Source of the DNA: Fibrobacteria bacterium
GTDB taxonomy: Bacteria; Fibrobacterota; Fibrobacteria; UBA11236
Assembly (NCBI GenBank): GCA_025360005.1
Contig: JANYDA010000057.1
Coordinates: forward strand, 15,065-79,064
Length of the DNA stretch: 64,000 nucleotides
Reading direction: 5' to 3'
Shown in pieces: positions 390 to 40,058 of the stretch. Under the pieces are notes generated by a model. That model had not been told where the DNA came from and searched no databases. It saw only the letters and a program-made list of their open reading frames with translations. The position numbers were made by a program, and so were the translations under genes. How positions within the stretch are numbered: the stretch's first letter is position 1; each line of letters starts with the position of its first letter.

Positions 390-505
390 GGTGCCATGCT
401 CTCCACGGGTAATTCTACCATAGGCGCCGCAGGCGGGGCAAAGCCCGCGCATACGGGGAAACGGCGCGGATACCCCCCGGTGGGGGCAAGGCAAGCGGCT
501 CTACC

Positions 506-1003
506 TCAAATTCCGCCATCCCGTCCGCGATCGACTTCCCGGATGAAGTCTCCGAGCGCCCGGTAGAGTCCCGTCGGCCGGAAATCCGCCGCGTTCGCCG
601 GCGCCTCCCGCATCGCTTTCTCCAGCTCGGCTTCCAATCCGGCCACTTCCAGGACGATGGGGTAGCGGAACCGTTGCGCAAAGTGGCGCGACCAATCAAC
701 CTGGTGATCGTTCATCGCCTCGCCGAACCTGGCCAGCCGGGGGACAACCACCAGGCGCCTGCCGGCCTTCAATGCATCCAGGATGCAGACGCTGCCGTGG
801 GAAACCACCAGGTCGGCCCAGGTAATGTCCTCGATCAGGCCGGGCTTGAAATCGAACCAGTCCGCGTGCCCGGGCTTGAATTTGGAATAGCCTTTCTGGA
901 GCCTTACCTCCCATCCGGGCCGACGCCCGGCGATGGCGTCCAATTCCATCAGGAGCCGATCGAATCCGATATCGTGCATGCCCACCATGCAGAAGATTTT
1001 CAT
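506..1003 (-). CDS. Alg13-like glycosyltransferase C-terminal-domain protein (GT28 C-terminal; PssE/EpsF-like)
   Basis: MKIFCMVGMHDIGFDRLLMELDAIAG...HGSVCILDALKAGRRLVVVP motif. The long N-terminal extension in the ORF track is R/G/P-rich junk, so I chose the ATG at 1003. ATGA overlap with the upstream Alg14-like gene. Confidence 0.7.
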   Translation of the reverse strand: MKIFCMVGMHDIGFDRLLMELDAIAGRRPGWEVRLQKGYSKFKPGHADWFDFKPGLIEDITWADLVVSHGSVCILDALKAGRRLVVVPRLARFGEAMNDHQVDWSRHFAQRFRYPIVLEVAGLEAELEKAMREAPANAADFRPTGLYRALGDFIREVDRGRDGGI

Positions 1004-1443
1004 ACGATGCCGCCGTGGAATTCCGCCCGGGGTCCGAAAGACCGCAGCGATTCGCCGTTCTGGACATAGAACTTGTCCGCGAAGGGGTAGAGGATCCTGG
1101 CCGTCAGGGAAGGCTTCTCGACGCGGGTCAGGGTTTCGATGAATACCGTCCTGGCGCGGAAAATTTTCGCCGCCAGGAATACCGGGATGGCGATTTCCGA
1201 GCCGGTGCTGAGGACAAGCTTGGGCCGCTCGCGCCAAAAGGCGCCGAGCACTTTCCATAGCACCGGGATGACGCGCAAGGGATTGCGATCGAACTTGGGC
1301 ACCATGCAGATGGGGAAGGGAAGTCCGCCCATGCGCGGGTTGGCGTAAGTGATGAGGAAAACCTCGTGCTCGGCGAAGGCGGGGCGCAGGAACAGCGCTT
1401 CCGTCATGTGGCCCCCGTCGGAAGCCGCGATGCATATTTTCAT
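1000..1443 (-). CDS. Alg14-like oligosaccharide biosynthesis protein (PssD/EpsE-like)
   Basis: MKICIAASDGGHMTEALFL...LVLSTGSEIAIPVFLAAKIFRARTVFIETLTRV is typical of Alg14. Start codon chosen at 1443, overlapping the Wzx stop (ATGA). Confidence 0.7.
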   Translation of the reverse strand: MKICIAASDGGHMTEALFLRPAFAEHEVFLITYANPRMGGLPFPICMVPKFDRNPLRVIPVLWKVLGAFWRERPKLVLSTGSEIAIPVFLAAKIFRARTVFIETLTRVEKPSLTARILYPFADKFYVQNGESLRSFGPRAEFHGGIV

Positions 1444-2843
1444 TCCCACCCCGGCAGCCGCGCCATGCGCCGGAAATCGGAAGCCTTTACGCCGCCGCAT
1501 AGGGAGAAGGCGGCGAGCAGAAGGGCCAGGTTCACCGGCATGGGCCAATGCAGGGAAACGAGCGCCAGGCCCGCCGTTCCCGCCCCCAGGATCCTCACGA
1601 AGCCGGGCATGGGCGAGAAGGCGACATATTTCCGGACATGCAGGATGCGCAGCAGGCCGAAAGCGGATTGCGCCGCCAGCACCGACATGGCCACGGCGAG
1701 GAGGCCGCGGCCCAGCAGCATGGCCGCAAGGGTGGCAATCAGCACCGTAGCCACGCGTCCCAGTTCAAGCAGCATCGCCGCTTTGGCATGGGCCCCTCCG
1801 CTCAGCATAGGAGTGGTGAAGTACCTGGGGTATTCGGCCAACTGTGCCAGGATGAAGATCCCGAAGGTGGTTTGCAATCCGGAATACTCCTGGCCGTAGC
1901 AGCGCAGGATCAGATCCTTGCAGGCCAGCAGGATGAAAGTGAAAGCGAGCGCTATCGTTCCCGAGGTCCGGAAATACTCGGCGGGAAGCGCGCCCGTTCC
2001 CGCGGCTTGCCTTTCCGCGCCGCGTGCCGTCCAGGCGAAGAATGCGCCCGCCGCCGGGGTCAGCACCACGGTGGCGGCCATGCTCCAGGAGGCGATGGCG
2101 TTATAGTAGGACGCGTTCCGATCCGATAAGCCGATTTTGATGGCGATGGGCAGCAACTGGGAGAGTACGCCTACAGCGGCGTTGGGCACCCATAAGAGGA
2201 GCGCCAAGCGTAACGTCGCGGAGACGGGCTCGATAGGGCCCTGCGGGCGGCGAGGCGCGCGCGTCCGCAGGAAAAGCAGCGCGGCGATGGCCATGCCGGA
2301 TGCGAAGAGCGCCAGGTTCAATTGCCGCAGGAAGCTCTCGAACGCCGGCTTGGCCAGCACCAGGTAGATCACGGAACCTATTTTGGCGGTTTCGTAGGTA
2401 AGGCTGACCAAGAAAGAGAGGTTCATCGCCTGCAGGCCGTTGAAAACCGAGACGGCCACGTTCTGGATCACCAGGACCGCCAACCACAAGGCGAAGAAGG
2501 CGAAGACGTGCGCTCCGGACGGCTGGAAAAGTTCCGGCCGGAACCAGATCAGGAGGATGAAGGGAAGGTTGCACAACGCTGCCAGGAAAATGCCCCGGCC
2601 CAACATGCGCACCGGATCGTTCCGCCCTTCGCCGATGCGCTTGACCATCGCGGCGCCGATGCCGGCGTCGCAAACCAGCCGGATCAGGGAGATAACGCTG
2701 ATATAATAGACGAAGCGTCCGTGGCTTTCCGCCCCATAGCTGCGGATCAACGCGAAGTTAAGGATCAGGAGGCCCAGGTTTTCCAACCCGGTCGCGGCGA
2801 TCAACCATATGCCATTGCCGAACAGTGAGGGGCGTTTTGCCAA
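1440..2843 (-). CDS. wzx: Polysaccharide flippase, MOP/Wzx family
   Basis: 467 aa, about 12–14 hydrophobic segments and a typical oligosaccharide flippase profile; first gene of a minus-strand operon with Alg14/Alg13-like genes. Confidence 0.75.
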   Translation of the reverse strand: MAKRPSLFGNGIWLIAATGLENLGLLILNFALIRSYGAESHGRFVYYISVISLIRLVCDAGIGAAMVKRIGEGRNDPVRMLGRGIFLAALCNLPFILLIWFRPELFQPSGAHVFAFFALWLAVLVIQNVAVSVFNGLQAMNLSFLVSLTYETAKIGSVIYLVLAKPAFESFLRQLNLALFASGMAIAALLFLRTRAPRRPQGPIEPVSATLRLALLLWVPNAAVGVLSQLLPIAIKIGLSDRNASYYNAIASWSMAATVVLTPAAGAFFAWTARGAERQAAGTGALPAEYFRTSGTIALAFTFILLACKDLILRCYGQEYSGLQTTFGIFILAQLAEYPRYFTTPMLSGGAHAKAAMLLELGRVATVLIATLAAMLLGRGLLAVAMSVLAAQSAFGLLRILHVRKYVAFSPMPGFVRILGAGTAGLALVSLHWPMPVNLALLLAAFSLCGGVKASDFRRMARLPGWE

Positions 2844-2987: not shown

Positions 2988-4535
2988 ATGACAAAATCCC
3001 ATCGTCTCCTCCGGATCGCGGCTCTTTTGTTCCCTTTGCTCTGGGGCATGGGATGGATCCTCTCCAAGGGTTTTCCGGACTATCCTCCCGGCAACGACAG
3101 TTGCCTTTACCTGACCATGGCCAAAGGCTTCGCGCAGGGAACGGGTTACCAAGACGTTACTTCCCCGGATCCGCATGCGGGCACCTTGCAAAGCCCGTCC
3201 TTCTGGCCCCTGCTGCTCAGCCTATATTGGCGGCTCCCCCATGCCTCCCTGTTAACGTTGAAACTGGTCAATGCCTTCCTGTTGTGCCTGGCGGCCATTC
3301 CCTGTTTTTTCTGGCTCCGGCTCTTTCTCCCGGAGCTTCCCGCCTTCCTCATCGTGGTTGCCGTAGCCTCGTCCTGGGTGAACGTTTTCCTGGGGAACTC
3401 CTTCATGACGGAAACGGTTTTCATGCCGCTCCTCTATTGCGGGCTCCTGCTTTCACAAAGGGGCATTGCATCGGGAGGCGACGCGAGGGGAGGAACGGGC
3501 ATGCGGTGGGGCGCGTTGATCGTTTGGACCTTAACGGCCCGCACCCGCGTGGTGGGGTGGGTGTTCTGGGGGACGTACCTGTTTCTGCTGGGGAGGCGCA
3601 AGGAATGGATCAAGGTAGCCGTGGGGCTGGCCCTGATGGGGGCTTGGCTGGCTTTCGAGCAGGCCATGGCGGCGGGCCTGCGCGTAAGTCAATACAAGGA
3701 TGGGATGTTCACGGAGAAATACCCCCTCCTGGTCAGCCTCAAAACCGGCACGGCCATCCTCCTGGGTAACCTGAAAGATACCCTATGGGCCTGGGCCACT
3801 GCCGGCCAAGCCCATGCCTTGTTCCCCTGGTTCTATTATGCGCATCCCATGGACAAGGCCAAGCGCCTGATCTGCGCCGCCATTTTCCTGGCCGTGCTCC
3901 GGGGGCTTTTCCTGGTCTGGCGCCGGCAGCGGGCGAGCCGTCCCTGGCTTCTGGCGGCACTGGTTGCCAACGCGCCCACCTTCGCGATCTTCCATCCCCA
4001 GGACACCTGGCGTTACATGCATCCCTTTCTGCCCTTCTCCTGCCTGTTCCTGATGCAGGCATTGCAACGCGTCCGTTCTCCATTTACCAGGGTCGCATCC
4101 GAGGGGGCCATTGCGGACGGCGCCGGCGCGAGCGGCAGATGGATGGCCGCCGCGGGCATGATCCTGATTTTCGCCCAGGCCATGCACAGTTACCGGCGGG
4201 ACATGGATGACGACTATATCGATCAGAGCCGGGATTTCCGGGCCCTGCACGATGCCATCCTGGCCGCCCCGGCCAAGCCGGCCCTGATCCTGTCTCCGGA
4301 TCACTATTACACTTGGTTGCGCACGGGCATTCCGGCCATGAGCGATTTCGGGCGCCAGCGATACCTTCCTGATGCGATCCCTTACCTCAAGGATAGGGTA
4401 ACCTGGGCGATACGGGGTTCGGCCAATGCGTATTACATGGAACCCTGGGAGCGGGCCGGAGTGGAGTTCGAGCGGCCTCCCGTGCTCCAGGTGAAGCAAT
4501 GGCAAGCCTTCCGGGCCGGATGGAAAGGGAAATAG
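2988..4535 (+). CDS. Putative GT-C fold membrane glycosyltransferase (ArnT/PMT-like) with large C-terminal soluble domain
   Basis: Multi-TM N-terminal half with an early periplasmic-loop acidic motif (PPGNDSCLYLTMAKGF), followed by a ~250 aa soluble C-terminal domain; family-level call only. Confidence 0.5.
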   Translation: MTKSHRLLRIAALLFPLLWGMGWILSKGFPDYPPGNDSCLYLTMAKGFAQGTGYQDVTSPDPHAGTLQSPSFWPLLLSLYWRLPHASLLTLKLVNAFLLCLAAIPCFFWLRLFLPELPAFLIVVAVASSWVNVFLGNSFMTETVFMPLLYCGLLLSQRGIASGGDARGGTGMRWGALIVWTLTARTRVVGWVFWGTYLFLLGRRKEWIKVAVGLALMGAWLAFEQAMAAGLRVSQYKDGMFTEKYPLLVSLKTGTAILLGNLKDTLWAWATAGQAHALFPWFYYAHPMDKAKRLICAAIFLAVLRGLFLVWRRQRASRPWLLAALVANAPTFAIFHPQDTWRYMHPFLPFSCLFLMQALQRVRSPFTRVASEGAIADGAGASGRWMAAAGMILIFAQAMHSYRRDMDDDYIDQSRDFRALHDAILAAPAKPALILSPDHYYTWLRTGIPAMSDFGRQRYLPDAIPYLKDRVTWAIRGSANAYYMEPWERAGVEFERPPVLQVKQWQAFRAGWKGK

Positions 4536-4540
4536 CACGA

Positions 4541-5575
4541 TCAATCCCTAAGGGCCACGTCCTTGGCGGGCATGCCGTAGTCCCTGAGCAAGCGCCGATA
4601 ATCCGCATCGGCGATCACGCAGGTGGCGCGTATGTGCCGCCGTTTGGCGAGCATTTTGGGAAGCTGCCTCATGGCACCCCAATACGCTTTGCACAGCACC
4701 CCGGCCAAGCGCAGGCTGGAATGGTCCCCGGCGAATTTTCCCGCGCGTCCCGTTCCCGATAATGCGCCGTACGTCTGCCAGAAATACCGGAGCAGCGTAT
4801 AACCCAGTCCGTAGAGCAACACCAGGGCGGGGAAATTCTTCACGGCTACCCAAATGCGGTTCCGTTCCACCAGGTAGGCTTTGAGCGGGCTGTGGCTGCC
4901 GCCGCTGCCGGAATGGTGGTGGTTGACCGCGGCGGTGGGCACGTACATGCATTTCCATCCGCGCGCGCGCGCGCGCCAGCCCAGATCAGTGTCTTCCGCG
5001 TAGGCGAAGAAGTCCTCGTCGTAATGGCCGATTTCATCGAGCATGGATTTGCGGAACAGGCTGCAGCAGCCGCTGGAGAAGAACACTTCCCTTTCGCGCA
5101 GAAAACCTTCCGGCGTCTCCATACGGCCGCGTCCCAGGGCCAGGCCATCCGGGCAAACCGCGATCCCGGCCGAGTCGATCCGGTTCTCCTCGAACTTGAG
5201 CATGATGCGTGAAGCGCAGGCCCCGATGCTTCCGTCCCGGTCCATGGCGCGCTTCAGTTCCGCCACGCACCCGGGAAAAAGATCGGTATCGTTGTTGAGG
5301 ATGATCAGGTAGGGCGTTTCGCAAGCGCGGATGCCGGCATTGTTGCCTCCGGCGAATCCGAGATTCGATGCGTTCCGGATCAATCGTACTTCCGGATATT
5401 CCCGGCGGAGGAAGGCGACGGAGTCGTCCGTGGAACCGTTGTCCACCACCAGGATGGAAAGCCGCGGATAGCTTTGCCGTTTGACGGAATCGAGGCATTC
5501 GGAAAGGAATTTTCTTCCGTTCCAATTCAGGATGATCACGGTGATCAGGTCGTCCACAAGGATCGAGTATACCAT
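4541..5575 (-). CDS. Glycosyltransferase family 2 (rhamnosyltransferase/WbbL-like)
   Basis: VIILNWNGRKFLSECLDSVKRQSYPRLSILVVDNGSTDDS...NLGFAGGNNAGI...DED motifs of GT2_2 enzymes. Confidence 0.85.
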   Translation of the reverse strand: MVYSILVDDLITVIILNWNGRKFLSECLDSVKRQSYPRLSILVVDNGSTDDSVAFLRREYPEVRLIRNASNLGFAGGNNAGIRACETPYLIILNNDTDLFPGCVAELKRAMDRDGSIGACASRIMLKFEENRIDSAGIAVCPDGLALGRGRMETPEGFLREREVFFSSGCCSLFRKSMLDEIGHYDEDFFAYAEDTDLGWRARARGWKCMYVPTAAVNHHHSGSGGSHSPLKAYLVERNRIWVAVKNFPALVLLYGLGYTLLRYFWQTYGALSGTGRAGKFAGDHSSLRLAGVLCKAYWGAMRQLPKMLAKRRHIRATCVIADADYRRLLRDYGMPAKDVALRD

Positions 5576-5745
5576 TAGCCGGTCCCCGGCGTCCGGCGCG
5601 GGTTGACGACCAAGGCGGATGAGGTCCGGAAATCGCCCCTAGGTTGGCGATTCTTCACGCGGCGCTGGCCTAACGCATTCATTTACGATACTATTTCCAG
5701 GTGGAATCCCCCTATGATTGCGCTTCGCGCTGGGCGCGGTGAAGC

Positions 5746-6414
5746 TTGCTCGATCCGGCGACCATATCCGCCATAGTCGGGCATTATCCCCACGCATCGG
5801 CCTTGCAACGCTGGCACATGCGCGGGCGCCTGCGGCTCTGCCCCTACGATGCCTTGCTCAAGCATTTGACCGGCGCCGGCGATCTTCTGGACGTGGGCTG
5901 CGGCTTCGGGCATTTGGCCTGGTACCTGGCTTCGCAGCAACCGCGATTGCGGTACTTTGGCACCGATATCGATTCCCGGAAAATAAACCTCGCGCGAGGG
6001 AGCTTAGCGGGCGCGGAAGCGCGGCCGGAATTCCATCCCGGCGATGCGCGGGAACTGGTTGGATTGCCGGCGCGCTTCGGCAACATCGTTTTCCTGGACG
6101 TGCTTTATCTCATGCCTTGGGACATGCAAAAGCGGATGCTGGCGTGGGCTTTTTCGCGCCTGGCCCCCGGCAGGGAAAGCACGCTGTTGATCAAGACCAT
6201 GGATGAGGCGCGCGGTTTTTCCGGTTTCCGCGCGGTGGCCGAGGAGTGGATCATGGTACGGTTGCTGGGCCGCACCCTCAGTTCAGGGGCCCTTAATGGC
6301 GCGCGTCCCCTTTCCGACTACCTGGATCACGCCCGCGCGCTGGGCTTCCGGGGCGAATCGGAAAGCCTGGGGACCTTCAATCCTTCCACCATCCTTAGTT
6401 TCCGGCGCGCATAG
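5746..6414 (+). CDS. Class I SAM-dependent methyltransferase
   Basis: Motif I LLDVGCGFGHLAWYL; start may be at a downstream Met. Confidence 0.75.
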   Translation: MLDPATISAIVGHYPHASALQRWHMRGRLRLCPYDALLKHLTGAGDLLDVGCGFGHLAWYLASQQPRLRYFGTDIDSRKINLARGSLAGAEARPEFHPGDARELVGLPARFGNIVFLDVLYLMPWDMQKRMLAWAFSRLAPGRESTLLIKTMDEARGFSGFRAVAEEWIMVRLLGRTLSSGALNGARPLSDYLDHARALGFRGESESLGTFNPSTILSFRRA

Positions 6415-6422
6415 GCGGAACC

Positions 6423-7241
6423 GTGGTCACCGATTTCCATGCATATGAAAAGGCGCTTTGCCTCCGGGGCCTGGTGCCCCTGCTGCGCAAAACCGGATTC
6501 GATCCCACCGGCCGATCCGTGTTGGACGTGGGGTGCGGCTACGGCGGCGTGCTGGCCGGATTGGCCGGGGTATTCAGGTTGCGGGAAGCAGTTGGCATCG
6601 ATCTGGATTCGGATATGATCCGTGACGGAGTGAACAAATCACCCGCCGGGGTAAGCTTGCGTGTCGGCGACTTTTTCGGATTGCCCGCGCGGGAATTCGA
6701 TCTGATCCTGATGCGGGACGTGCTGGAGCATATTCCGGATGCGGAAACCGCCTTGGCCAAGGCGGCGGCGATGCTCGCGCCCGGAGGAATCCTCTTCGTC
6801 AGCTTCGCGCCTTTCTATTCGCCCTTCGGCGGCCACCAGCACAACGGGTCCGGCCTTTTCTCCCATGTACCGTGGCTGCAGGCTTTGCCGGAAAGCTGGT
6901 TCCGGGCCGCGCTGGGGTTGAAAGGCAATAGCTATAAATCCGGCCGGGGCCTGGCGGACGATATGGAGAGCGTTTTGCGCACGCGCTTGACCCTGGCCCG
7001 CTTCCACAGGATGATCCCGGCGGCAGGCCTGCGCGTGGGGTATTTCGCGCGTTACCTGTCGCGCCCGGATTACCGCATCAAGTTCGGCCTCCCGGAGATC
7101 GGCTTCCCGGCCATCCCATTCCTGGATGAATTGGCCAGCACGGGCGTGGAAGCCCTGCTGGAGAAAGCGTACCCGCAGGATGGGCCCGCCGCCGAGGCCG
7201 CAGAATTTCCGGCGCCGCCCGCCTCCGGGAACACTGCATGA
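6423..7241 (+). CDS. Class I SAM-dependent methyltransferase
   Basis: Motif I VLDVGCGYGGVLAGL and post-I acidic motif LMRDVLEHI; GTG start per ORF track; in tandem with the preceding MT. Confidence 0.75.
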   Translation: MVTDFHAYEKALCLRGLVPLLRKTGFDPTGRSVLDVGCGYGGVLAGLAGVFRLREAVGIDLDSDMIRDGVNKSPAGVSLRVGDFFGLPAREFDLILMRDVLEHIPDAETALAKAAAMLAPGGILFVSFAPFYSPFGGHQHNGSGLFSHVPWLQALPESWFRAALGLKGNSYKSGRGLADDMESVLRTRLTLARFHRMIPAAGLRVGYFARYLSRPDYRIKFGLPEIGFPAIPFLDELASTGVEALLEKAYPQDGPAAEAAEFPAPPASGNTA

Positions 7242-8023
7242 TTCCGGGCAATCTCACCATCAATGCGGACGATTTCGGGCTGGATGCCCGCGTCTCCGCC
7301 GCCATCGCCCTTTGCCTGGACGAAGGGTTGATCAATTCGTTTTCCGTGTACCCTTTCCAGGACGCGTTCCATGCGGATCTGCTGCGCTCGATCCTGGTCC
7401 GCCATCCCCGTGCCAAAGTGGGCGCGCATCTGGCCGTGATCGATGCCGCGCTCAAGGATCATCCCGGGCATTTCCGGGATTTCCTGGCGCGCTATCTCAC
7501 GGGCCGCATGCCGCCCGCCAAGATCCGGTCCCTGTGGCGGGCCCAGATCGAAACGCTGGGCGCTCTCCTGGGCGGGACCGATCGCATCGCGCACCTGGAC
7601 AGCCATCAGCATTTGCATGTTCTGCCGGGGTTGTGGCCGGAGGCGCGCTCCTTGCAAATGGAATACGGCATCCCCCGCCTGCGCGTGCCTTATGAATCCT
7701 TGCGGCGCGCGGTAACCTACCGGTTTCCTTTCGGACTGGGATTGCAGGCCTTGGCCTTTTGGCGCTCCTGCGGGGCGGGGAAGGCGCCGGTTCCCGGCTT
7801 CCTGGGTTTCTTTACCAGCACGCGCTTCACATTGCGGGAAAACCATGCCGCCCTGGAACGGGTGCGGTTGCAACCGTGGCGCGGTTTTGAACTGATGGTC
7901 CATCCGGCCCTGCCCGCTTCCGGAACAGGCGGAATTGCGCCCGGGGTGGCCGCGTCCCAGGAACTGGAAATCGCGGAACTTAGGTTGGTGGGGGAATTCT
8001 TCCGTCCCGCCGCTCCCGCTTAG
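7238..8023 (+). CDS. ChbG/HpnK/NaxD (YdjC) family carbohydrate deacetylase
   Basis: N-terminal hallmark LTINADDFGLDARVSAAI...HLDSHQHLH of the YdjC family; overlaps the upstream MT by 4 nt. Confidence 0.8.
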   Translation: MIPGNLTINADDFGLDARVSAAIALCLDEGLINSFSVYPFQDAFHADLLRSILVRHPRAKVGAHLAVIDAALKDHPGHFRDFLARYLTGRMPPAKIRSLWRAQIETLGALLGGTDRIAHLDSHQHLHVLPGLWPEARSLQMEYGIPRLRVPYESLRRAVTYRFPFGLGLQALAFWRSCGAGKAPVPGFLGFFTSTRFTLRENHAALERVRLQPWRGFELMVHPALPASGTGGIAPGVAASQELEIAELRLVGEFFRPAAPA

Positions 8024-8048
8024 CCCCACGGCCGCGGCGCCGGAAGGT

Positions 8049-8210
8049 TCAGAACAAAGCGTAGATGAAGGGAGCGATGACGCCCGATTGCCCCGCGATG
8101 ATGAGCAGGCCCATCAATAACAGCACGACGATGATGGGCGTGAGCCACCAGGCTTTGCTCACCTTCAGGAATTGCCAAACGTCCGCCGCGAAACTTCGAT
8201 TCTTGCCCAT
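8049..8210 (-). CDS. Small membrane protein, SxtK/DUF5989-like
   Basis: Unlisted 53-aa ORF: MGKNRSFAADVWQFLKVSKAWWLTPIIVVLLLMGLLIIAGQSGVIAPFIYALF. The WWL.PII..LLL...APFIY.LF pattern matches the small protein typically encoded next to NodU/CmcH carbamoyltransferases; lies immediately downstream of the carbamoyltransferase. Confidence 0.55.
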   Translation of the reverse strand: MGKNRSFAADVWQFLKVSKAWWLTPIIVVLLLMGLLIIAGQSGVIAPFIYALF

Positions 8211-8221
8211 TGCCTGCTCCG

Positions 8222-10039
8222 TCAGTCCGTAGCCGCGGACTCGCTGTCCCAGATATCCCGCGGATTATCCTTCCGCCGCACCAGATAGTCGCCGATGATA
8301 AGGCAATCGATGCCGGTCCCCATCATGCAGCGATAGGCGTCCGCGGGCGAGCACACGATGGGTTCGCCGCGGATGTTGAAGGATGTATTGACCAGCATGG
8401 GTATCCCCGAAAGCGTTCCGAATCCCTTGATGAGATCATAATATAGCGGATTCGCCTCCCGCCGCACGGTCTGAACGCGGCCGGTTCCGTCCACGTGGGT
8501 GACGGCGGGCAGGCGCGCTCGCCAATTTTCCCGGATAGGATAGACCATGAGCATGAAATCCGCGGCCGCCGGGATGGCTCGGTCGCATTGGAAATATTCC
8601 TCCGCATCCTCCGCGCATACCGAAGGCGCAAAGGGACGGAAGGCTTCGCGGTGCTTGACCTTCTCATTGAGGATGGCCTGCATGTCCGGGCGGCCGGGAT
8701 GGGCCAGGATGCTGCGCGCGCCCAGGGCTCGGGGGCCCCATTCCATGGCCCCTTGGAACCACCCGACCACTTCACCCGCGTTAAGCAGGCGCGCGGCCTG
8801 GGAGATCAGATCGGCGCGATCCGCGAAGCGCCGGTGCAGGATGCCTTTTCCGGCCAGGAAATTCCCGATCGCTTCGGAACCGTATTGCGGCCCCAGGTAG
8901 GCGTGGGTCAACCGGTATGCCCGGGATTTGCCGAGCACGCAGCAATGGGCGAACAGGGCCGCGCCCATGCTGCTGCCCGCGTCGCCGGCATTGGGTTGGA
9001 TCCAAAGGTCGGTGAAACCGGTTTGGGAAAGGATGCGGCCGTTGATGACGCTGTTGAGGGCCACGCCTCCGGATAGCGCCACATTGCCGCAGCCCGTGAT
9101 CCTGCGGGCATGGCGCAGGATGGCCATCACCACGTCCTCGGTGATCATTTGCAGCGCCGCGGCGATGTCCTTGTGGCGCGGAAGCAATTCCTCTTCGGCC
9201 TCGCGCACGGGGCCGTCCAGCAGTTGCGACAGGCGCGCGCCCGGCATGCGATCGCTATGCTGGAAGGTGAAATAGGAAAGATCCAACGCATAGCTGCCGT
9301 CCGGCTTGATATCGATCACGCGCTTCAATTTGGCATAGTAGGGATTGCCATCCCGGTCCATGCGCCCGTAAGGACTCAGCCCCATCACCTTGTATTCCGA
9401 ATTGTTCACCGAAAAACCCAGGTAGGCCGTGAGGGAAGAGTAGAGTAAACCCAGCGAGTGGGGGAAGCGGATGTCCTGGTAAAGTTCCACGGAGGAGCCG
9501 CGGCCGCGGCCATAGGCCGTGGTGGTCCATTCCCCTACGCCGTCCACGGTCACGATGGCGGCCTCCTCGAAAGGGCTGGGCAGGAAGGCGCCGGCGGCAT
9601 GGGATAAATGATGATCTGCATATACAACGTCGCCCCGGTAGCCGAGGCGTTTCTTCAAAAGCGAACGGACGCGGATTTTCTCGGACAGCCAGCCGGGCAT
9701 GGCCATCTGGAACGTCTTGAAGCCGCGCGGAAAGCCCTCCAGATGCTGGCTGAGGATGCGCTCAAATTTCCGGAAAGGCTTTTCATAAAAGGCCGCCAAT
9801 TCCACCTGATCTATGCCGATGCCCTGGCTTTCCAAGCACCATCGGATAGCGGAGAGCGGGAAAGAAGCGTCATGTTTGCGGCGCGAGAACCGTTCCTCTT
9901 CGGCCGCGGCCACCACCATGCCGTCCTTCAGCAGCGTGGCGGCGGCATCGTGGTAATGGCAACTGATCCCCAGGATATACCTGGGCCCGGAAGGGCCAGG
10001 CTCACAAGCGGTAGGCTCAGAAGGGGCGATAATAGGCAT
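8222..10039 (-). CDS. NodU/CmcH family carbamoyltransferase
   Basis: 605 aa; YILGISCHYHDAAATLLKDG...ADHHLSHAAGAF...VTVDGVGEW...NTSFNIRGEPIV motifs diagnostic of O-carbamoyltransferases. Confidence 0.9.
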   Translation of the reverse strand: MPIIAPSEPTACEPGPSGPRYILGISCHYHDAAATLLKDGMVVAAAEEERFSRRKHDASFPLSAIRWCLESQGIGIDQVELAAFYEKPFRKFERILSQHLEGFPRGFKTFQMAMPGWLSEKIRVRSLLKKRLGYRGDVVYADHHLSHAAGAFLPSPFEEAAIVTVDGVGEWTTTAYGRGRGSSVELYQDIRFPHSLGLLYSSLTAYLGFSVNNSEYKVMGLSPYGRMDRDGNPYYAKLKRVIDIKPDGSYALDLSYFTFQHSDRMPGARLSQLLDGPVREAEEELLPRHKDIAAALQMITEDVVMAILRHARRITGCGNVALSGGVALNSVINGRILSQTGFTDLWIQPNAGDAGSSMGAALFAHCCVLGKSRAYRLTHAYLGPQYGSEAIGNFLAGKGILHRRFADRADLISQAARLLNAGEVVGWFQGAMEWGPRALGARSILAHPGRPDMQAILNEKVKHREAFRPFAPSVCAEDAEEYFQCDRAIPAAADFMLMVYPIRENWRARLPAVTHVDGTGRVQTVRREANPLYYDLIKGFGTLSGIPMLVNTSFNIRGEPIVCSPADAYRCMMGTGIDCLIIGDYLVRRKDNPRDIWDSESAATD

Positions 10040-20094: not shown

Positions 20095-21810
20095 ATGGGC
20101 GCATGGGACCGGGCCCCCGGGCCCCACCGTCCTTCCGTGCATCCCACCGCGGGCGGAACCCGCAAGGGATGGGACAGGGTAACCGCGCCGCTACTGGGCT
20201 GGGCCGCGTTCGCGGCCGTTTATTTCCTCCTCGCCTTCCGGCCCGGCATCGTCCGTAGCGACGATTTCGGCTATCTCCGCAGCGTCATCGGGACTTTGCG
20301 CGCGGGCCGCCCGTTCCTGGATGATTGGCTGGAGCCGTTCAGCGCGGTGTTTTCCTCGGCCTGCGCGCTGCTCTACCGGCTTACCGGCAGTTTTCTCCTT
20401 TCCACCTGGGGCTTCCAGGCGGCCTGCGCGCTGGCGCTGTATCCGTTGCTGTACCGCCTCTTGGCCGTACGCCTGCAACCCCGGCACGCGGCCCTATCGG
20501 CGTTGGCCATGGCCGGTTTACCCTTGTATCTGGCCAAGGCGGCCGATTTCCACGCGGGCATCTGCACCTTGGATCTGTTTCTGGCCTCGTTGATCCTTTT
20601 CGAGACGGATCGGATGGGCTGGTTCTATGCGGCGGCGTTCCTGGCTTTCGCCAATCGCCAGAACCAGATTTGCCTGCTGATCCTGCCCGCGTGGAAATGG
20701 TTCTTCCCCATGCCGGCCGGCAAGTCCCGGCGCCGGACCGCGGATGTTGTCGCGCCGTGCCTATACGCGTTGGCGGCCCTGGCGCTGACGCTGGCCATGA
20801 ACGGAACCTATGCCGCGCGGAACGCGGGATTCCGGCATAGCGCGCCGGGGCCGCTGCTGGCCGCCTTCGCCTCCGCGGCCATCGCCGGCGGCCTGCTGAG
20901 CTTGGGCTGGCTTTCCGCCTTCTCTTTTCTCCGCGGCCGCCCGGGTCCGCTCGCAAACGCGCGGTGGCGGTTTCCGGCCGCGGCAAGCCTGGCGGTGCTG
21001 GCTTTTCTTCCCTGGTGGGATCCATCGCTGCTGCGGATGGATACTCCCATGTTCGGCTATCTGGGCTGGTCCCGGGTCAATTTTGCCTTGCCCTGGATCT
21101 TGATTGCTTCTTACTGGCTGCTCGATTTCCGGCTTTTGCGCCCCAGGCCCTACCTGGCCCTGATCGGGGGTTACGTGCTGGTTACCTCGCTGCGGGGGAT
21201 CTGGTGGGACTATTATTTCCTGGAAATCGCGTTGCTCTGCCTGCTCCTGGCCTTGCAAGGCCCCGGGATTTCCGGCATGGATCTGCCCGGGCCCGCCCTC
21301 GTGTTCCTGGGCGCGTTGCTGGCGGCCGATATCGGTTATGCCTATCTCCTCAAGGTGCAATCCGATAAGCAGCGGCTGGCCGTGGTAATCCTGGAAGGCC
21401 TGGAACGCCAAGACCGCGTGCGCGTGGATCGCATGACGGGGGCCCCCTTCGGGTTGCTGGGATGGAAGCTGTTCGGTTATTTCACCTCCCACGAAGGCCG
21501 CGACTACGGGGAGTTGGCGGACTTCCTGGGTTATGTGCGCAAGGACAGGGTGACGGTGGAAACCCAGTTGCCATGGCGGCGGGCCTTCAAGTCCGCATTG
21601 CCCGCGCAAGCGGTGATGATCGACAGCGGTTTCTGCCGGGTGGGGTTTGCCAGCGTCCGTTACCGGGTGGCGGATTTGCATGGACCGGATTCCGGCGTCC
21701 AGGCGCAGGGACGCTTTCTGGTTTTGGATTCCGCCCGCTATCGTCCCCTGCGTTTCCCGTTGGACGATGGGGAGTGGAAGGAATACCTGGATGTTCCGGG
21801 CCGCAGGTAA
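20095..21810 (+). CDS. GT-C-like polytopic membrane protein, tandem paralog 1
   Basis: Start chosen at 20095. First-loop motif GIVRSDDFGYLRSV, ~10 TM, conserved C-terminal soluble domain (VDRMTGAPFGLLGWKLF...ETQLPWRRAFK) shared with the downstream paralog. Confidence 0.55.
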   Translation: MGAWDRAPGPHRPSVHPTAGGTRKGWDRVTAPLLGWAAFAAVYFLLAFRPGIVRSDDFGYLRSVIGTLRAGRPFLDDWLEPFSAVFSSACALLYRLTGSFLLSTWGFQAACALALYPLLYRLLAVRLQPRHAALSALAMAGLPLYLAKAADFHAGICTLDLFLASLILFETDRMGWFYAAAFLAFANRQNQICLLILPAWKWFFPMPAGKSRRRTADVVAPCLYALAALALTLAMNGTYAARNAGFRHSAPGPLLAAFASAAIAGGLLSLGWLSAFSFLRGRPGPLANARWRFPAAASLAVLAFLPWWDPSLLRMDTPMFGYLGWSRVNFALPWILIASYWLLDFRLLRPRPYLALIGGYVLVTSLRGIWWDYYFLEIALLCLLLALQGPGISGMDLPGPALVFLGALLAADIGYAYLLKVQSDKQRLAVVILEGLERQDRVRVDRMTGAPFGLLGWKLFGYFTSHEGRDYGELADFLGYVRKDRVTVETQLPWRRAFKSALPAQAVMIDSGFCRVGFASVRYRVADLHGPDSGVQAQGRFLVLDSARYRPLRFPLDDGEWKEYLDVPGRR

Positions 21811-21811
21811 C

Positions 21812-23539
21812 ATGCGCAAGACGTATGCCTTTCCGCTGTGGCCCGTGCTGGGATTCTGCGCCTATTCCCTGCTGTACTTCCCCTTGCTGTACCATCCCGG
21901 ACTGGTCCGCCTGGATGACTTCGGATATTTGCAAAGCGTGGCGGAAACCCTGGTCCGGCATCGCCCCTTCACGCACGATTCGCTGGAGCCGTACGGCGCC
22001 ACCATGTCCGTGCTGGGAGCTTTGATCTATGCGGTCACGGGCGATTTCCCTTTCGCCACCTGGGGCCTGCAAGCGTTGTTCGCGGGCGCGAATTTCTTCC
22101 TCCTATACGCGTTGATCCGGCCGAGGCTGGGTCCGCGCGGCGCGTCCCTGTCCGCGCTTTTGCTGGCGACCCAGCCCATCTACTGGTACAAGTGCGCAGA
22201 GTACACCGGCAACGTTTTCACCATGGCGTTCGTACTGGCGGCGCTGTTGGCCTACCGGCGCGGCCGCTGGGGCTGGTTCTTCCCCCTGGTTTTCCTGGCC
22301 TTCGCCAACCGCCAGAACAGCGTGGCCATGCTGGCGCTACCGGCCTTCCAGCTGGCGTTTGATCGAACCATGCCCGCATCCGTTAAGGCCCGGTTATGGA
22401 TCGGCGTGGCCGCGTTCGTCGCGGCCGGCCTTGGCCTGCATGCCATCATGAACCATACCGTGGCTCAAGCCCAGAACATCTATGCGGTTCTGGACGCGCG
22501 CAAATGCCTGCTCATCGTCCGCGCCGGGTTCATCGGCTTATGCCTGGGCCTGGCCTGGCTTTCCTGCCTGGGTTTGCTGCTGGGGAAAAACGCCTTGGCC
22601 AACCTGCGCGCCAACCTTTCGCGTCCCTGGCTGCCGCTGGCCGCCACCTGCGGCTTTCTGGCGCTGTTGCTGCCTTCCTCGCTGCCCCATTTGCGATCGC
22701 ATCCCTATGTGGAGTTCTGCGCCCCTTTGCTATTGGACTTGGACGCGCGCATCCATTTGCAATGGTTCCTGGCCGCGTTGGTTCCCGGCCTGCTATGGGC
22801 GCTGGACTGGCGCGCCGCCTCGCGGCCCACCCCGGCCATGGCTTTGTTCCTGGGCTATGTGGCCGTAAGCGGTCTCAGGGCGTTCTGGTACGATTTCTAT
22901 CTCATCGATCTGGCCCTGGCCGCATTGTTCCTGCTGCTGGAGGACGGAGGCGCGCTGCGGCCCGTCCGGATCGCGCCGCTGCTGGCGGGGTTCATCCTGC
23001 TTGCGCATATCGCCTGGGGCTACGGCTTCAAGATCCTGGCGGACAAGGAAATGCTTTCCTTGCGTTCCTATGAAGGCATGGAAAGGGATCGCGGCTTGCC
23101 GGTGGATCGCATGACGGGAGCGCCCTGGGGGTACCTGGGATGGAAACTCTACGATCATCTCGTTTCCCATTCGGATACGGATGCGCGCAAGAGTTTCGGC
23201 TGCTATATGCTGGCCGACCAGGTGGTGGTGGAAACGCAGTTGCCCTGGAGGCGGAGCTATAAGCGGAGCGTGTTGCCGCCGCAGGCCCTTATCCTGGAAG
23301 CGGGGAAGACGCCCATCGGCGGATTTCCGGTGCCGTATCGCGTCCTGGATTTGAGGAGGGCGGGGTCGCCGCCGGGGGATCCGGCATGTTACCTTTCCCT
23401 GGAAGGCGCGCAATATCGCAGCAAACCTTTCCCCCTCGATGCCGCGGAATGGTCCGCCTATATCCGGGAGCGGCGCCGGAATTACGGGTCCGGGACCGGC
23501 ACCGGTGCCTCCCTCCCACGGCCCGCAAGTCCCTTCTGA
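21812..23539 (+). CDS. GT-C-like polytopic membrane protein, tandem paralog 2
   Basis: Start chosen at MRKTYAFPLW, 1 nt after the paralog-1 stop. GLVRLDDFGYLQSV motif and C-terminal VDRMTGAPWGYLGWKLY...ETQLPWRRSYK are co-linear with paralog 1. Confidence 0.55.
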   Translation: MRKTYAFPLWPVLGFCAYSLLYFPLLYHPGLVRLDDFGYLQSVAETLVRHRPFTHDSLEPYGATMSVLGALIYAVTGDFPFATWGLQALFAGANFFLLYALIRPRLGPRGASLSALLLATQPIYWYKCAEYTGNVFTMAFVLAALLAYRRGRWGWFFPLVFLAFANRQNSVAMLALPAFQLAFDRTMPASVKARLWIGVAAFVAAGLGLHAIMNHTVAQAQNIYAVLDARKCLLIVRAGFIGLCLGLAWLSCLGLLLGKNALANLRANLSRPWLPLAATCGFLALLLPSSLPHLRSHPYVEFCAPLLLDLDARIHLQWFLAALVPGLLWALDWRAASRPTPAMALFLGYVAVSGLRAFWYDFYLIDLALAALFLLLEDGGALRPVRIAPLLAGFILLAHIAWGYGFKILADKEMLSLRSYEGMERDRGLPVDRMTGAPWGYLGWKLYDHLVSHSDTDARKSFGCYMLADQVVVETQLPWRRSYKRSVLPPQALILEAGKTPIGGFPVPYRVLDLRRAGSPPGDPACYLSLEGAQYRSKPFPLDAAEWSAYIRERRRNYGSGTGTGASLPRPASPF

Positions 23540-28169: not shown

Positions 28170-28239
28170 TACCCGGCTGAAACTTCCGTCCAAAACCCAA
28201 CCTCTTCTCGGCCTCAAAGGCTGCGAGATGGGGCAGGGT

Positions 28240-28257
28240 GGGCGCGGGCCTGCGCCC
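28240..28257. terminator. GC hairpin between convergent genes (possible bidirectional terminator)
   Basis: GGGCGCgggcctGCGCCC between the CDF transporter (+) and the lipoprotein (−) 3' ends; no clear U-run. Confidence 0.3.
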
Positions 28258-28264
28258 CCACAGA

Positions 28265-32997: not shown

Positions 32998-33017
32998 GGA
33001 GGATCCTTTGGCTGCGT

Positions 33018-40010: not shown

Positions 40011-40058
40011 TACCTGGCCAGCCCGTTTCGGAATCATAACGAAAGAGAAGGATTTCCC

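What the first reader, a model, noticed from the sequence alone, without database searches (positions are those of the whole stretch)
2988..23539. Arn/Flm/Lgm-like lipid-linked aminosugar modification pathway with acetyl protection and four GT-C candidates
Within about 20 kb the window encodes the parts of an ArnA-T-style pathway. They are a UDP-sugar 6-dehydrogenase (17104–18318); an ArnA-C/UXS-like SDR that is translationally coupled to it (18315–19334); a DegT/ArnB-like aminotransferase (13237–14391); an ArnC/FlmF2-like polyprenol-phosphate GT2 with C-terminal TM helices (14411–15430); a YdjC-family deacetylase (7238–8023); and four GT-C-like polytopic membrane proteins (2988–4535, 15472–16992, 20095–21810, 21812–23539). 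The YdjC family is the one that supplies NaxD, which deacetylates undecaprenyl-P-GalNAc in Francisella. Instead of an ArnA formyltransferase there is a WecD-like GNAT (12392–13147). This suggests the amine is N-acetylated, moved onto polyprenol phosphate, deacetylated by the YdjC enzyme and then transferred by GT-C enzymes in the periplasm. Three SAM methyltransferases, a carbamoyltransferase, a Wzx flippase and several GT2/Alg13/Alg14 genes lie in the same locus, pointing to a decorated envelope glycan or lipid A-like modification.
Basis: partly seen in the sequence, partly recalled or inferred. Interest (0 to 1): 0.75.

Follow-up and report, generated by a model that had tools for sequence, protein, structure and literature searches.

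The report
Lipid-linked sugar and GT-C glycan-decoration locus
This stretch of an uncultured Fibrobacterota genome is a cell-envelope sugar-decoration locus that probably loads single sugars onto a lipid carrier and attaches them outside the cytoplasmic membrane; it follows the known aminoarabinose (Arn) logic but uses a different amino sugar (an N-acetyl-fucosamine type), and nothing ties it to lipid A.

Summary
The pathway reading holds only in part.

- **Aminotransferase:** it is an orthologue-grade WecE (563 bits against a 375 cutoff; ArnB scores 213 against 631), not ArnB.
- **SDR:** it is epimerase-like, with no UXS/ArnA signature.
- **ArnC-like GT2:** it is a full-length homologue of ArnC.
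- **Conserved cassette:** its neighbourhood (GT-C, GT2, WecD-like GNAT, WecE) recurs in at least ten phyla, including Chloroflexota. dTDP-sugar genes rmlB and rmlA sit directly upstream in three loci. I therefore infer a polyprenyl-P-Fuc4NAc-type donor that a GT-C enzyme transfers. This is a three-component system with a sugar I found no report of, and it is not a lipid A-specific Arn system.
- **YdjC deacetylase:** it does not travel with the aminosugar cassette (0 of 80 loci). It more likely serves the second module (NDP-sugar dehydrogenase, SDR, DPMS-like GT2, two GT-Cs). In Chloroflexota a PIG-L deacetylase accompanies that module instead.

The acceptor, the flippase and the exact sugars remain unknown. 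I rate this a new variant of a known kind, of moderate interest.

The parts
1..452 (-). 5' part of a DPMS/PpgS-like GT2 (269 aa, runs off the window start). It is followed off-window by a DUF2304 small membrane protein and a DltB-like MBOAT.
   Evidence: NCBIfam best hit is PpgS at 71-72 bits, below the 370 cutoff. The full gene and its neighbours are seen in L008.
506..1443 (-). Alg14/PssD-like (1000-1443) and Alg13/PssE-like (506-1003) two-part glycosyltransferase.
   Evidence: Pfam Alg14 and Glyco_tran_28_C in L008. NCBIfam PssD 107 bits and PssE 77 bits.
1440..2843 (-). Wzx-type (Polysacc_synt) multi-pass flippase.
   Evidence: Pfam PF01943, 39 bits. About 12 hydrophobic segments.
2988..4535 (+). 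GT-C candidate 1 (515 aa), from a very small lineage-restricted family. Conserved Asp37 (NDSCLYL) follows TM1.
   Evidence: No Pfam hit. Five homologues by word search and 28 representatives at E<=1e-30. Remote relatives carry PMT_2. hhalign to the GTC4 family gives 82% probability, E 1e-5. The AF2 model was poor. The 2988 start is supported by conserved N-termini.
4541..5575 (-). Soluble GT2 glycosyltransferase (repeat-unit assembly type).
   Evidence: Pfam Glycos_transf_2, 100 bits. No TM segments.
5746..7241 (+). Two SAM methyltransferases (5746-6414 and 6423-7241). The second overlaps the YdjC start by 4 nt.
   Evidence: Pfam and junction sequence. An MT1-like gene lies between a DPMS-like GT2 and YdjC in L109 and L115.
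7238..8023 (+). YdjC-family deacetylase with NADDFG and DSHQH motifs.
   Evidence: Pfam YdjC, 108 bits. PDB ChbG-like 7vi8. Absent from 80 of 80 cassette loci. Distant homologues sit downstream of DPMS-like GT2 genes.
8049..10514 (-). NodU-like O-carbamoyltransferase (8222-10039) flanked by DUF5989 (8049-8210) and a 165-aa membrane protein.
   Evidence: Pfam Carbam_trans_N/C at 240 and 244 bits. L001 gene calls. Hydropathy.
10692..11711 (+). Class IV (IlvE-type) aminotransferase. Its role in the locus is unclear.
   Evidence: NCBIfam BCAT, 406 bits against a 307 cutoff. The order YdjC-IlvE-MTase-GNAT is conserved in L003.
11736..12404 (+). SAM methyltransferase (MT3), a frequent accessory of the cassette.
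   Evidence: Pfam. Homologues (27-46% identity, mostly 38-46%) lie near the cassette in 15 of 80 loci.
12392..13147 (+). WecD-like two-domain GNAT N-acetyltransferase.
   Evidence: NCBIfam WecD, 74.5 bits over residues 11-241, below the 219 cutoff. Best PDB hit is WecD 2fs5. GNAT homologues are found in 67 of 80 cassette loci by HMM.
13237..14391 (-). WecE-type dTDP-4-keto-6-deoxyhexose 4-aminotransferase.
   Evidence: NCBIfam PRK11706, 563.5 bits against a 375 cutoff; ArnB 213 against 631. PDB WecE 443 bits against ArnB 162.
14411..15430 (-). ArnC/GtrB-family polyprenyl-phosphate glycosyltransferase with a DDDLQN motif and two C-terminal TM helices.
   Evidence: PDB ArnC 185 bits over residues 18-316; GtrB 141 bits. 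55-66% identical homologues occur in at least ten phyla.
15472..16992 (-). DUF2079-family GT-C candidate 2, first gene of the DUF2079-GT2-WecE operon.
   Evidence: Pfam DUF2079, 87 bits. hhalign to the fold-verified GTC4 family, 83% probability. The long N-terminus is conserved in L003.
17104..18318 (+). NDP-sugar 6-dehydrogenase.
   Evidence: TIGR03026, 241 bits against a 190 cutoff. Nearest PDB entries are an archaeal UGDH, UDP-ManNAc dehydrogenases (4r16, Cap5O) and CalS8.
18315..19334 (+). Extended SDR, epimerase-like, translationally coupled to the dehydrogenase.
   Evidence: Best PDB hit is the 4-epimerase 4zrm at 86 bits; UXS aligns only over residues 206-334. ATGA overlap. 65% identical orthologues in Chloroflexota.
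19334..20092 (+). DPMS-like GT2 (252 aa, no TM helices).
   Evidence: The only PDB matches are DPMS 5mlz (77 bits), ArnC and GtrB. It has an atypical MGDLSD motif.
20095..21810 (+). GT-C candidate 3, a paralogue of candidate 4.
   Evidence: 40% identity over 562 aa, E 5e-95. Shares the DDFGYL motif.
21812..23539 (+). GT-C candidate 4, fold-verified. The family is known only from Fibrobacterota.

Best explanation
The region is an envelope-glycan locus of an uncultured Fibrobacterota bacterium. It is built from parallel 'polyprenyl-phosphate-sugar synthase plus GT-C transferase' modules, which sit beside genes for a Wzx-dependent, methylated and carbamoylated polysaccharide.

**Module A** (12392-16992)
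1. A WecE-type aminotransferase and a WecD-like GNAT convert dTDP-4-keto-6-deoxyglucose to a dTDP-4-acetamido-4,6-dideoxyhexose of the Fuc4NAc type. The keto-sugar comes from RmlA and RmlB, which must be encoded elsewhere in the genome.
2. The ArnC-family GT2 loads this sugar onto polyprenyl phosphate.
3. After flipping, the DUF2079 GT-C enzyme transfers it to an unknown extracytoplasmic acceptor.

**Module B** (17104-23539, plus YdjC at 7238-8023)
1. An NDP-sugar 6-dehydrogenase and an epimerase-like SDR make a uronic acid, possibly an N-acetyl-hexosaminuronic acid.
2. A DPMS-like GT2 puts it on polyprenyl phosphate.
3. YdjC probably N-deacetylates the lipid-linked sugar.
4. Two lineage-specific GT-C paralogues transfer it.

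**Possible Module C**
A PpgS-like GT2 with DUF2304 lies at the window edge and may serve GT-C candidate 1 (2988-4535).

**Shown:** family and fold assignments, operon structure, and conservation of neighbourhoods.

**Inferred:** the sugar identities, the lipid-linked intermediates, which GT-C serves which donor, and the acceptor.
For: - **WecE:** equivalog-level match, and 443 bits to the solved E. coli WecE.
- **GNAT:** best matches are WecD.
- **GT2:** full-length ArnC/GtrB homologue with a DDDLQN motif.
- **Cassette conservation, 80 species-level loci from at least ten phyla:** WecE-like genes (46-59% identity) lie within a few kb in 63. WecD-like GNATs are found in 67 by HMM. Among the 58 loci with at least 3 kb on both sides, 44 have both.
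- **GT-C partner:** large polytopic proteins lie directly upstream on the same strand. PMT_2 matched in 5 of the 10 tested, 4 above Pfam's cutoff.
- **dTDP route:** true rmlB-rmlA genes sit in or beside the cassette in L014, L086 and L029.
- **GT-C fold:**
- **Module B:** a tight five-gene operon. Its dehydrogenase, SDR and GT2_252 recur in L003, L013 and L024.
- **Deacetylase tracks module B:** it is YdjC in the Fibrobacterota loci and PIG-L in L013 and L024. Neither is found in the other 78 genome-scan cassette loci.
- **YdjC partner:** distant YdjC homologues lie directly downstream of GT2 genes that best match GT2_252.
- **Precedent:** NaxD, a YdjC-family enzyme, deacetylates Und-P-GalNAc (PMC11279074).
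Against: - No biochemical data exist for any of these proteins.
- rmlA and rmlB are not in the 64-kb window.
- No GtrA, ArnE/F or SMR-type flippase was found.
- The GNAT scores below the WecD cutoff (74 against 219).
- The GT2 scores below the ArnC equivalog cutoff (191 against 529), so donor specificity is not established.
- The DPMS-like GT2 lacks the first Asp of the Pren-P GT motif.
- In L013 and L024 the dehydrogenase and SDR share an operon with the ArnC-like GT2 and WecE. This would also fit a single Arn-like route.
- The link between the deacetylase and module B rests on only four loci.
- GT-C candidate 1 has remote-homology support only.
Confidence: 0.6

Rival explanations
1. The dehydrogenase makes an NDP-glucuronic acid and the SDR oxidatively decarboxylates it to a 4-keto-pentose. 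The aminotransferase then makes a 4-amino-4-deoxy-pentose and the GNAT acetylates it. The ArnC-like GT2 loads it onto polyprenyl-P, YdjC deacetylates it, and GT-C enzymes put the cationic sugar on lipid A or a similar anionic acceptor.
For: - All needed enzyme classes are present within 20 kb.
- The dehydrogenase, the SDR (65% identity), the ArnC-like GT2 and WecE share one operon in Chloroflexia L013 and Limnocylindrales L024.
- CalS8, which as I recall is a TDP-glucose dehydrogenase of an aminopentose pathway, is among the dehydrogenase's PDB hits.
- The GT2 is closer to ArnC than to GtrB.
Against: - The aminotransferase passes the WecE equivalog cutoff and scores 443 bits to WecE against 162 to ArnB.
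- UXS and ArnA profiles match only the SDR's C-terminal part (residues ~168/206-334). Met replaces the catalytic Glu.
- Only 2 of the 80 cassette loci carry orthologues of the dehydrogenase and SDR, while 3 have rmlBA adjacent.
- YdjC is in 0 of 80 loci.
- The extra DPMS-like GT2 inside the dehydrogenase-SDR operon has no role in this scheme.
- About 24 of the 80 loci are Chloroflexota.
Confidence: 0.12
2. There is no lipid-monophosphate step for the aminosugar. WecE and the GNAT simply supply dTDP-Fuc4NAc, and the dehydrogenase supplies a ManNAcA-type acid. Cytoplasmic glycosyltransferases then build an ECA-like, Wzx-flipped repeat unit. The ArnC-like GT2 and the GT-C proteins carry out an unrelated modification such as glucosylation.
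For: - WecE, WecD-like and WecC-like enzymes occur together, as in enterobacterial common antigen.
- Wzx, Alg14/13-type and soluble GT2 genes are present.
- The GT2's donor specificity is untested.
Against: - The order GT2-GNAT-WecE on one strand, with gaps of tens of bases, is conserved across at least ten phyla. L086 has an rmlB-rmlA-GT2-x-WecE operon.
- That conservation is hard to explain without a direct metabolic link.
- No WecF-like or WecG-like GT was seen in the window.
Confidence: 0.12
3. YdjC works with the PpgS-like GT2 and DUF2304 pair at the window edge, together with GT-C candidate 1. This would be a NaxD or mycobacterial GalN-type branch (polyprenyl-P-HexNAc to HexN) rather than part of module B.
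For: - The GT2's best NCBIfam hit is PpgS, and it lies next to a DUF2304 small membrane protein. This resembles Rv3631/Rv3632 with the GT-C enzyme Rv3779 (PMC3485146).
- NaxD is a YdjC-family enzyme (PMC11279074).
Against: - The PpgS score is far below the cutoff (72 against 370).
- A deacetylase co-occurs with the dehydrogenase-SDR-GT2_252 module in four loci, through non-homologous enzymes.
Confidence: 0.15

Closest known systems
Arn (PmrHFIJKLM) L-Ara4N lipid A modification pathway
   Same: - An ArnC-family polyprenyl-P GT2 (185 bits to ArnC structures).
- An N-acylated aminosugar nucleotide as the probable donor.
- A GT-C transferase acting outside the cytoplasm.
- A nucleotide-sugar dehydrogenase and an SDR nearby.
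   Different: - The aminotransferase is WecE-type, not ArnB.
- There is no ArnA formyltransferase or decarboxylase, no ArnD, no ArnE/F, and no GT83 match.
- The cassette occurs in phyla that are generally held to lack lipid A.
Three-component periplasmic glycosylation systems (GtrA/GtrB/Gtr*; Mann & Whitfield 2016; Kelly et al. 2024, PMC11127046)
   Same: A Pren-P GT2 synthase plus a GT-C transferase, encoded side by side, and often next to O-antigen or EPS genes.
   Different: - The donor sugar is inferred to be a 4-acetamido-4,6-dideoxyhexose from a dTDP precursor.
- No small flippase gene was identified.
- Several modules are stacked in one locus.
Enterobacterial common antigen Fuc4NAc branch (RmlAB, WecE, WecD)
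   Same: A WecE orthologue (563 bits) and a WecD-like GNAT. rmlBA are adjacent in related loci.
   Different: In ECA, the cytoplasmic GT WecF uses dTDP-Fuc4NAc on an Und-PP-linked intermediate (from my own knowledge). Here the conserved partner is an ArnC-like Pren-P GT2 plus a GT-C enzyme.
Francisella FlmF2/NaxD/FlmK and Bordetella LgmABC (Und-P-HexNAc to HexN on lipid A)
   Same: A GT2, a YdjC-family deacetylase and a GT-C enzyme in one locus (NaxD: PMC11279074).
   Different: - YdjC is not adjacent to its GT2 here.
- The substrate may be a hexosaminuronic acid.
- The target is unknown.
Mycobacterial PpgS (Rv3631)/Rv3632/Rv3779 galactosamine decoration of arabinogalactan (PMC3485146)
   Same: A DPMS-like GT2 next to a small membrane protein, with a GT-C transferase.
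   Different: Only weak similarity to PpgS (72 bits). The organism is probably a diderm from a different phylum (the FCB group is diderm, from my own knowledge).
Xanthomonas campestris wxc region 3 (wxcK, wxcN) FucNAc side-branching of the O-antigen (PMC4878081)
   Same: An N-acetyl-fucosamine-type dTDP sugar is added as a post-assembly side branch. The process needs an aminotransferase and a membrane protein.
   Different: - As I recall, the Xanthomonas sugar is the 3-amino isomer (Fuc3NAc).
- The gene families were not compared here.
Rhizobium RgtE / RgtA-D / LpsL galacturonic acid modification (from my own knowledge)
   Same: UDP-sugar dehydrogenase, 4-epimerase, Pren-P GT2 and several GT-C transferases, as in module B.
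   Different: No sequence comparison was run. Here the presence of a deacetylase suggests an N-acetylated uronic acid.

Membership tests
Arn pathway | ArnB-type UDP-4-keto-pentose aminotransferase | tested here: not met
   ArnB model 213 bits against a 631 cutoff. WecE model 563 bits against 375. PDB WecE 443 bits against ArnB 162.
Arn pathway | ArnA C-terminal decarboxylating SDR (UXS-like) | tested here: not met
   ArnA model 33 bits and PRK11908 54 bits, both over residues 168-330 only. UXS aligns only over 206-334. The motif is ISSSMVF, with no Glu.
Arn pathway | ArnA N-terminal formyltransferase and ArnD deformylase | tested here: not met
   No formyltransferase or polysaccharide-deacetylase domain was found in any scanned ORF. 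A GNAT and a YdjC are present instead.
Arn pathway | ArnC Und-P aminosugar transferase | tested here: inconclusive
   Full-length homologue of ArnC (185 bits), but below the equivalog cutoff (191 against 529).
Arn pathway | ArnT (GT83) and the ArnE/F flippase | tested here: not met
Three-component Pren-P-sugar / GT-C glycosylation systems | Polyprenyl-phosphate GT2 synthase | tested here: met
   14411-15430 matches ArnC and GtrB over full length and has DDDLQN. 19334-20092 matches only DPMS, ArnC and GtrB in the PDB.
Three-component Pren-P-sugar / GT-C glycosylation systems | GT-C fold transferase encoded alongside | tested here: met
Three-component Pren-P-sugar / GT-C glycosylation systems | Dedicated flippase (GtrA, SMR or MATE type) | tested here: not met
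   No small multi-TM ORF in 1-27 kb apart from the carbamoyltransferase-associated ones. A Wzx-type protein and an off-window DUF2304 are the only candidates.
Three-component Pren-P-sugar / GT-C glycosylation systems | Lipid-monophosphate-linked monosaccharide intermediate | not testable with these tools
   Needs glycolipid mass spectrometry.
dTDP-Fuc4NAc (ECA-type) nucleotide-sugar pathway | WecE aminotransferase | tested here: met
   563.5 bits against a 375 cutoff.
dTDP-Fuc4NAc (ECA-type) nucleotide-sugar pathway | WecD acetyltransferase | tested here: inconclusive
   74.5 bits against a 219 cutoff, though over the full two-domain length. Best PDB hit is WecD at 30 bits.
dTDP-Fuc4NAc (ECA-type) nucleotide-sugar pathway | RmlA and RmlB supplying dTDP-4-keto-6-deoxyglucose | tested here: inconclusive
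   Absent from the window. Present next to the cassette in L014, L086 and L029.
NaxD-type lipid-linked HexNAc deacetylases | YdjC fold and motifs | tested here: met
   Pfam YdjC 108 bits. NADDFG and DSHQH align to ChbG 7vi8.
NaxD-type lipid-linked HexNAc deacetylases | Genetic linkage to a Pren-P HexNAc synthase and a GT-C enzyme | tested here: inconclusive
   They share the locus but are not adjacent. Distant YdjC homologues lie directly downstream of DPMS-like GT2 genes. No NaxD sequence was available for direct comparison.

The most novel reading that the evidence does not exclude
The four-gene cassette (GT-C, ArnC-like GT2, WecD-like GNAT, WecE) is a widespread and so far uncharacterised system, found in at least ten phyla including Chloroflexota. 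It would make polyprenyl-phosphate-Fuc4NAc (or a methylated or deacylated derivative) as a new class of extracytoplasmic sugar donor. In Fibrobacterota it is combined with a second, lineage-specific module that delivers a deacetylated amino-uronic acid through a previously unrecognised GT-C family.
Probability: 0.4. Interest if true: 0.6.

Novelty: new variant of a known kind. Interest (0 to 1): 0.45.

Why it matters
If the inference holds, it adds a 4-acetamido-4,6-dideoxyhexose to the short list of sugars known to be delivered by lipid-monophosphate donors and GT-C enzymes. The list so far holds Glc, Gal, GlcNAc, Man, Ara4N, GalN, GalA and pentofuranoses.

It would also show that the Arn-style sequence (N-acylate, then load on lipid) is reused with a dTDP sugar across many little-studied phyla. 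It would give testable functions to DUF2079 proteins and to a Fibrobacterota-only GT-C family.

There is a practical caution too. 'ArnC/PmrF' annotations in metagenomes, which several homologues here carry, should not be read as polymyxin-resistance genes.

Tried and rejected
- **PDB sequence searches** with GT-C candidates 3 and 4 found nothing.
- **Profile of the candidate-1 family against the PDB** found nothing relevant.
- **AlphaFold2 of candidate 1** with a 5-sequence alignment gave pLDDT 50, so I ran no fold search on it.
- **hhalign of the shallow candidate-1 alignment** against the candidate-4 family gave no signal. A deeper alignment was needed.
- **Exact-protein look-ups** for 506-1435 and 2988-4535 failed, because the recorded gene calls differ.
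- **The afdb50 fold library** was unavailable.
- **Literature searches** for DUF2079 and PDB 8VR2 returned nothing useful. Searches for a polyprenyl-P-linked Fuc4NAc or viosamine donor returned no report.
- **A (D/N)PPY N-methyltransferase motif** was not found in the three methyltransferases.
- **A GtrA/SMR-like flippase ORF** was not found.
- **BLAST clustering** of the GT-C partners across phyla showed no common family. Pfam was needed instead.
- **Candidate 1 as a Wzy polymerase:** considered and set aside, because of its N-terminal Asp motif and its PMT_2-bearing relatives.

Full report
**Source and gene content**

The window has about 61% G+C. It comes from an uncultured Fibrobacterota bacterium: the closest named homologues of its proteins are from 'Fibrobacteres/Fibrobacteria bacterium' MAGs. 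Identical genes occur on metagenome contigs L001, L002 and L008.

Pfam and NCBIfam confirm these families:
- an NDP-sugar dehydrogenase;
- an extended SDR that overlaps the dehydrogenase stop by ATGA;
- a DegT-family aminotransferase;
- two polyprenyl-phosphate-type GT2 enzymes;
- a YdjC protein;
- a WecD-like GNAT;
- three methyltransferases;
- a NodU-like carbamoyltransferase;
- a Wzx-type flippase;
- a soluble GT2.

The ORF at 506-1435 is really an Alg14/PssD gene plus an Alg13/PssE gene. The locus ends at about 23.5 kb, where leuA/cimA and hisD follow. It extends left of the window to a PpgS-like GT2, a DUF2304 protein and a DltB-like MBOAT.

**The four GT-C candidates**

- **Candidate 3 (20095-21810).** It is 40% identical to candidate 4.
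- **Candidate 2 (15472-16992).** It matches Pfam DUF2079 at 87 bits and links to the candidate-4 family by hhalign at 83% probability.
- **Candidate 1 (2988-4535).** It has no Pfam hit, a tiny family and a poor model. Its remote relatives carry PMT_2. A deeper profile aligns its N-terminal module, Asp37 included, to the candidate-4 family at 82% probability.

The fold is therefore shown for one candidate, is strong for two and is moderate for one.

**The aminosugar branch is WecE/WecD-type, not Arn-type**

- The aminotransferase passes the NCBIfam WecE equivalog cutoff (563.5 against 375). It fails ArnB (213 against 631).
- It scores 443 bits to the E. coli WecE structure, against 162 for ArnB.
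- The GNAT's best NCBIfam and PDB matches are WecD, although below the cutoff.
- The SDR's best PDB matches are 4-epimerases.
- UXS and ArnA models align only to the SDR's C-terminal part (residues ~168/206-334). Its catalytic-Ser motif reads ISSSMVF, with Met where I recall decarboxylases have Glu.

**The polyprenol-phosphate step survives**

The GT2 at 14411-15430 is a full-length homologue of ArnC (185 bits) and of GtrB (141 bits). It has the Pren-P GT motif DDDLQN, against DADLQN in ArnC, and two C-terminal TM helices.

It belongs to a subfamily that is 55-66% identical across Acidobacteriota, Chloroflexota, Myxococcota, Verrucomicrobiota, Gemmatimonadota, Proteobacteria, Planctomycetota, Methylomirabilota, Abditibacteriota and Omnitrophota.

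In the 80 species-representative loci:
- a WecE-like gene (46-59% identical) lies within a few kb in 63;
- a WecD-like GNAT is found in 67 by HMM;
- of the 58 loci with at least 3 kb on both sides, 51 have WecE, 49 have the GNAT and 44 have both;
- the usual order is GT2-GNAT-WecE on one strand;
- a large polytopic membrane protein often lies directly upstream on the same strand;
- of the ten such proteins tested, five matched PMT_2 (four above Pfam's cutoff) and one has a C-terminal TPR domain;
- true rmlB-rmlA genes abut the cassette in L014, L086 and L029.

This pattern argues that the cassette makes a dTDP-4-acetamido-4,6-dideoxyhexose and loads it onto polyprenyl phosphate for a GT-C transferase. 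In the window the DUF2079 gene heads that operon, with gaps of 41 and 19 nt. In L003 a DUF2079 gene follows GT2-WecE with a 4-nt overlap.

An MT3-like methyltransferase accompanies the cassette in 15 of 80 loci. The sugar may therefore be methylated.

**The second module and the deacetylase**

The genes at 17104-23539 form a tightly packed five-gene operon:
1. dehydrogenase;
2. SDR;
3. DPMS-like GT2, whose only PDB matches are DPMS, ArnC and GtrB;
4. GT-C candidate 3;
5. GT-C candidate 4.

The dehydrogenase, the SDR (65% identity) and the GT2 recur in Chloroflexia (L013) and Limnocylindrales (L024), next to the aminosugar cassette.

YdjC is absent from all 80 cassette loci. L013 and L024 instead carry a PIG-L-family deacetylase, and the two copies are 67% identical to each other. 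A deacetylase therefore tracks the dehydrogenase-SDR-GT2 module, through non-homologous enzymes.

In a YdjC-centred metagenome scan, distant YdjC homologues lie directly downstream of GT2 genes that best match the DPMS-like GT2. Some have an MT1-like methyltransferase in between.

To my knowledge, characterised YdjC and PIG-L enzymes deacetylate 2-acetamido sugars. The one I confirmed from a paper is NaxD, which acts on Und-P-GalNAc (PMC11279074). The dehydrogenase's nearest solved relatives include UDP-ManNAc dehydrogenases.

I therefore favour a lipid-linked N-acetyl-hexosaminuronic acid that is deacetylated before transfer. This rests on few loci and is an inference.

**What remains open**

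- **Acceptor.** It is unknown. A lipid A-specific role is unlikely, since roughly 24 of the 80 cassette loci are Chloroflexota.
- **Flippase.** No dedicated one was found.
- **rmlAB.** They are not in the window.
- **DPMS-like GT2 motif.** The enzyme has MGDLSD where Pren-P GTs have the first Asp, the proposed catalytic base.
- **IlvE-type aminotransferase.** It is conserved in the order YdjC-IlvE-MTase-GNAT in L003. I cannot explain this.
- **Co-operonic modules.** Both modules share one operon in L013 and L024.

**Comparison with known systems and verdict**

The logic is that of the three-component periplasmic glycosylation systems (PMC11127046) and of the Arn and NaxD pathways. Membership of the Arn pathway fails on ArnB, ArnA, ArnD and ArnE/F.

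The nucleotide-sugar part matches the ECA Fuc4NAc branch. The PpgS-like GT2 with a small membrane protein resembles the mycobacterial GalN system (PMC3485146). FucNAc side-branching in Xanthomonas (PMC4878081) is a functional precedent.

My literature searches found no report of a polyprenyl-P-linked 4-acetamido-4,6-dideoxyhexose donor.

I rate the finding a new variant of a known kind, of moderate interest.

Noticed in passing
window 10692-11711; L003 19420-20433: A bona fide IlvE-type class IV aminotransferase (406 bits) is embedded in the glycan locus. It keeps the order YdjC-IlvE-MTase-GNAT in another Fibrobacterota contig. I could not tell whether it is a housekeeping passenger or a pathway member.
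   Followed up: partly
window 19334-20092; L003 5159-5908; L024 8009-8806: The DPMS-like GT2 subfamily has M-G/S-D-x-S-D where ArnC, GtrB and DPMS have D-A-D-L-Q. It thus lacks the first Asp, which has been proposed as the catalytic base.
   Followed up: partly
window 20095-23539: The GT-C family of candidates 3 and 4 has only 45 detectable members among 5.8 billion clusters. All named members are from Fibrobacterota. Individual members weakly hit three different GT-C Pfam families (PMT_2, DUF2079, Glyco_transf_22).
   Followed up: partly
L013 16817-17885; L024 12318-13397: A PIG-L-family deacetylase (67% identical between the two loci) sits beside the dehydrogenase-SDR-GT2 module in two Chloroflexota loci, in the role YdjC may fill in Fibrobacterota. 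L024 also has GT87-like and Alg6/8-like membrane proteins.
   Followed up: partly
L086 4939-7822 and downstream: A Gammaproteobacteria MAG has rmlB-rmlA-GT2(ArnC-like)-(~800 bp)-WecE on one strand. This is the most explicit link between the cassette and the dTDP-6-deoxyhexose route.
   Followed up: partly
window 8049-10514: A NodU-like carbamoyltransferase is flanked by a 53-aa DUF5989 protein and a 165-aa membrane protein with no Pfam match. The arrangement recalls carbamoyltransferase-associated small proteins of saxitoxin clusters (from memory, not tested).
   Followed up: no
L008 7638-8375 (left of the window start): A DltB-like MBOAT (45 bits) follows the PpgS-like GT2 and DUF2304. This hints at O-acylation or D-alanylation of the same glycan.
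   Followed up: no
L003 15861-17876: A 671-aa fusion of an SDR (Epimerase/GDP_Man_Dehyd) with a GT2 that is 29% identical to the ArnC-like GT2. It sits between the cassette and the GNAT operon of a related Fibrobacterota contig.
   Followed up: no
   Followed up: no
window 28000-46000 and 54381-56036: A polysaccharide-degradation neighbourhood: GH26 (40011-41270), GH5 (41315-42463), GDSL esterases, Pel9A-like beta-helix proteins, a DUF1080-type protein, and two DUF4423 paralogues (36269-37258 and 46425-47420).
   Followed up: no
homologues P0019, P0035, P0036 and others: Many metagenome homologues of the cassette GT2 are auto-annotated as 'undecaprenyl-phosphate 4-deoxy-4-formamido-L-arabinose transferase'. 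Given the WecE/GNAT context, this is probably a mis-annotation.
   Followed up: partly
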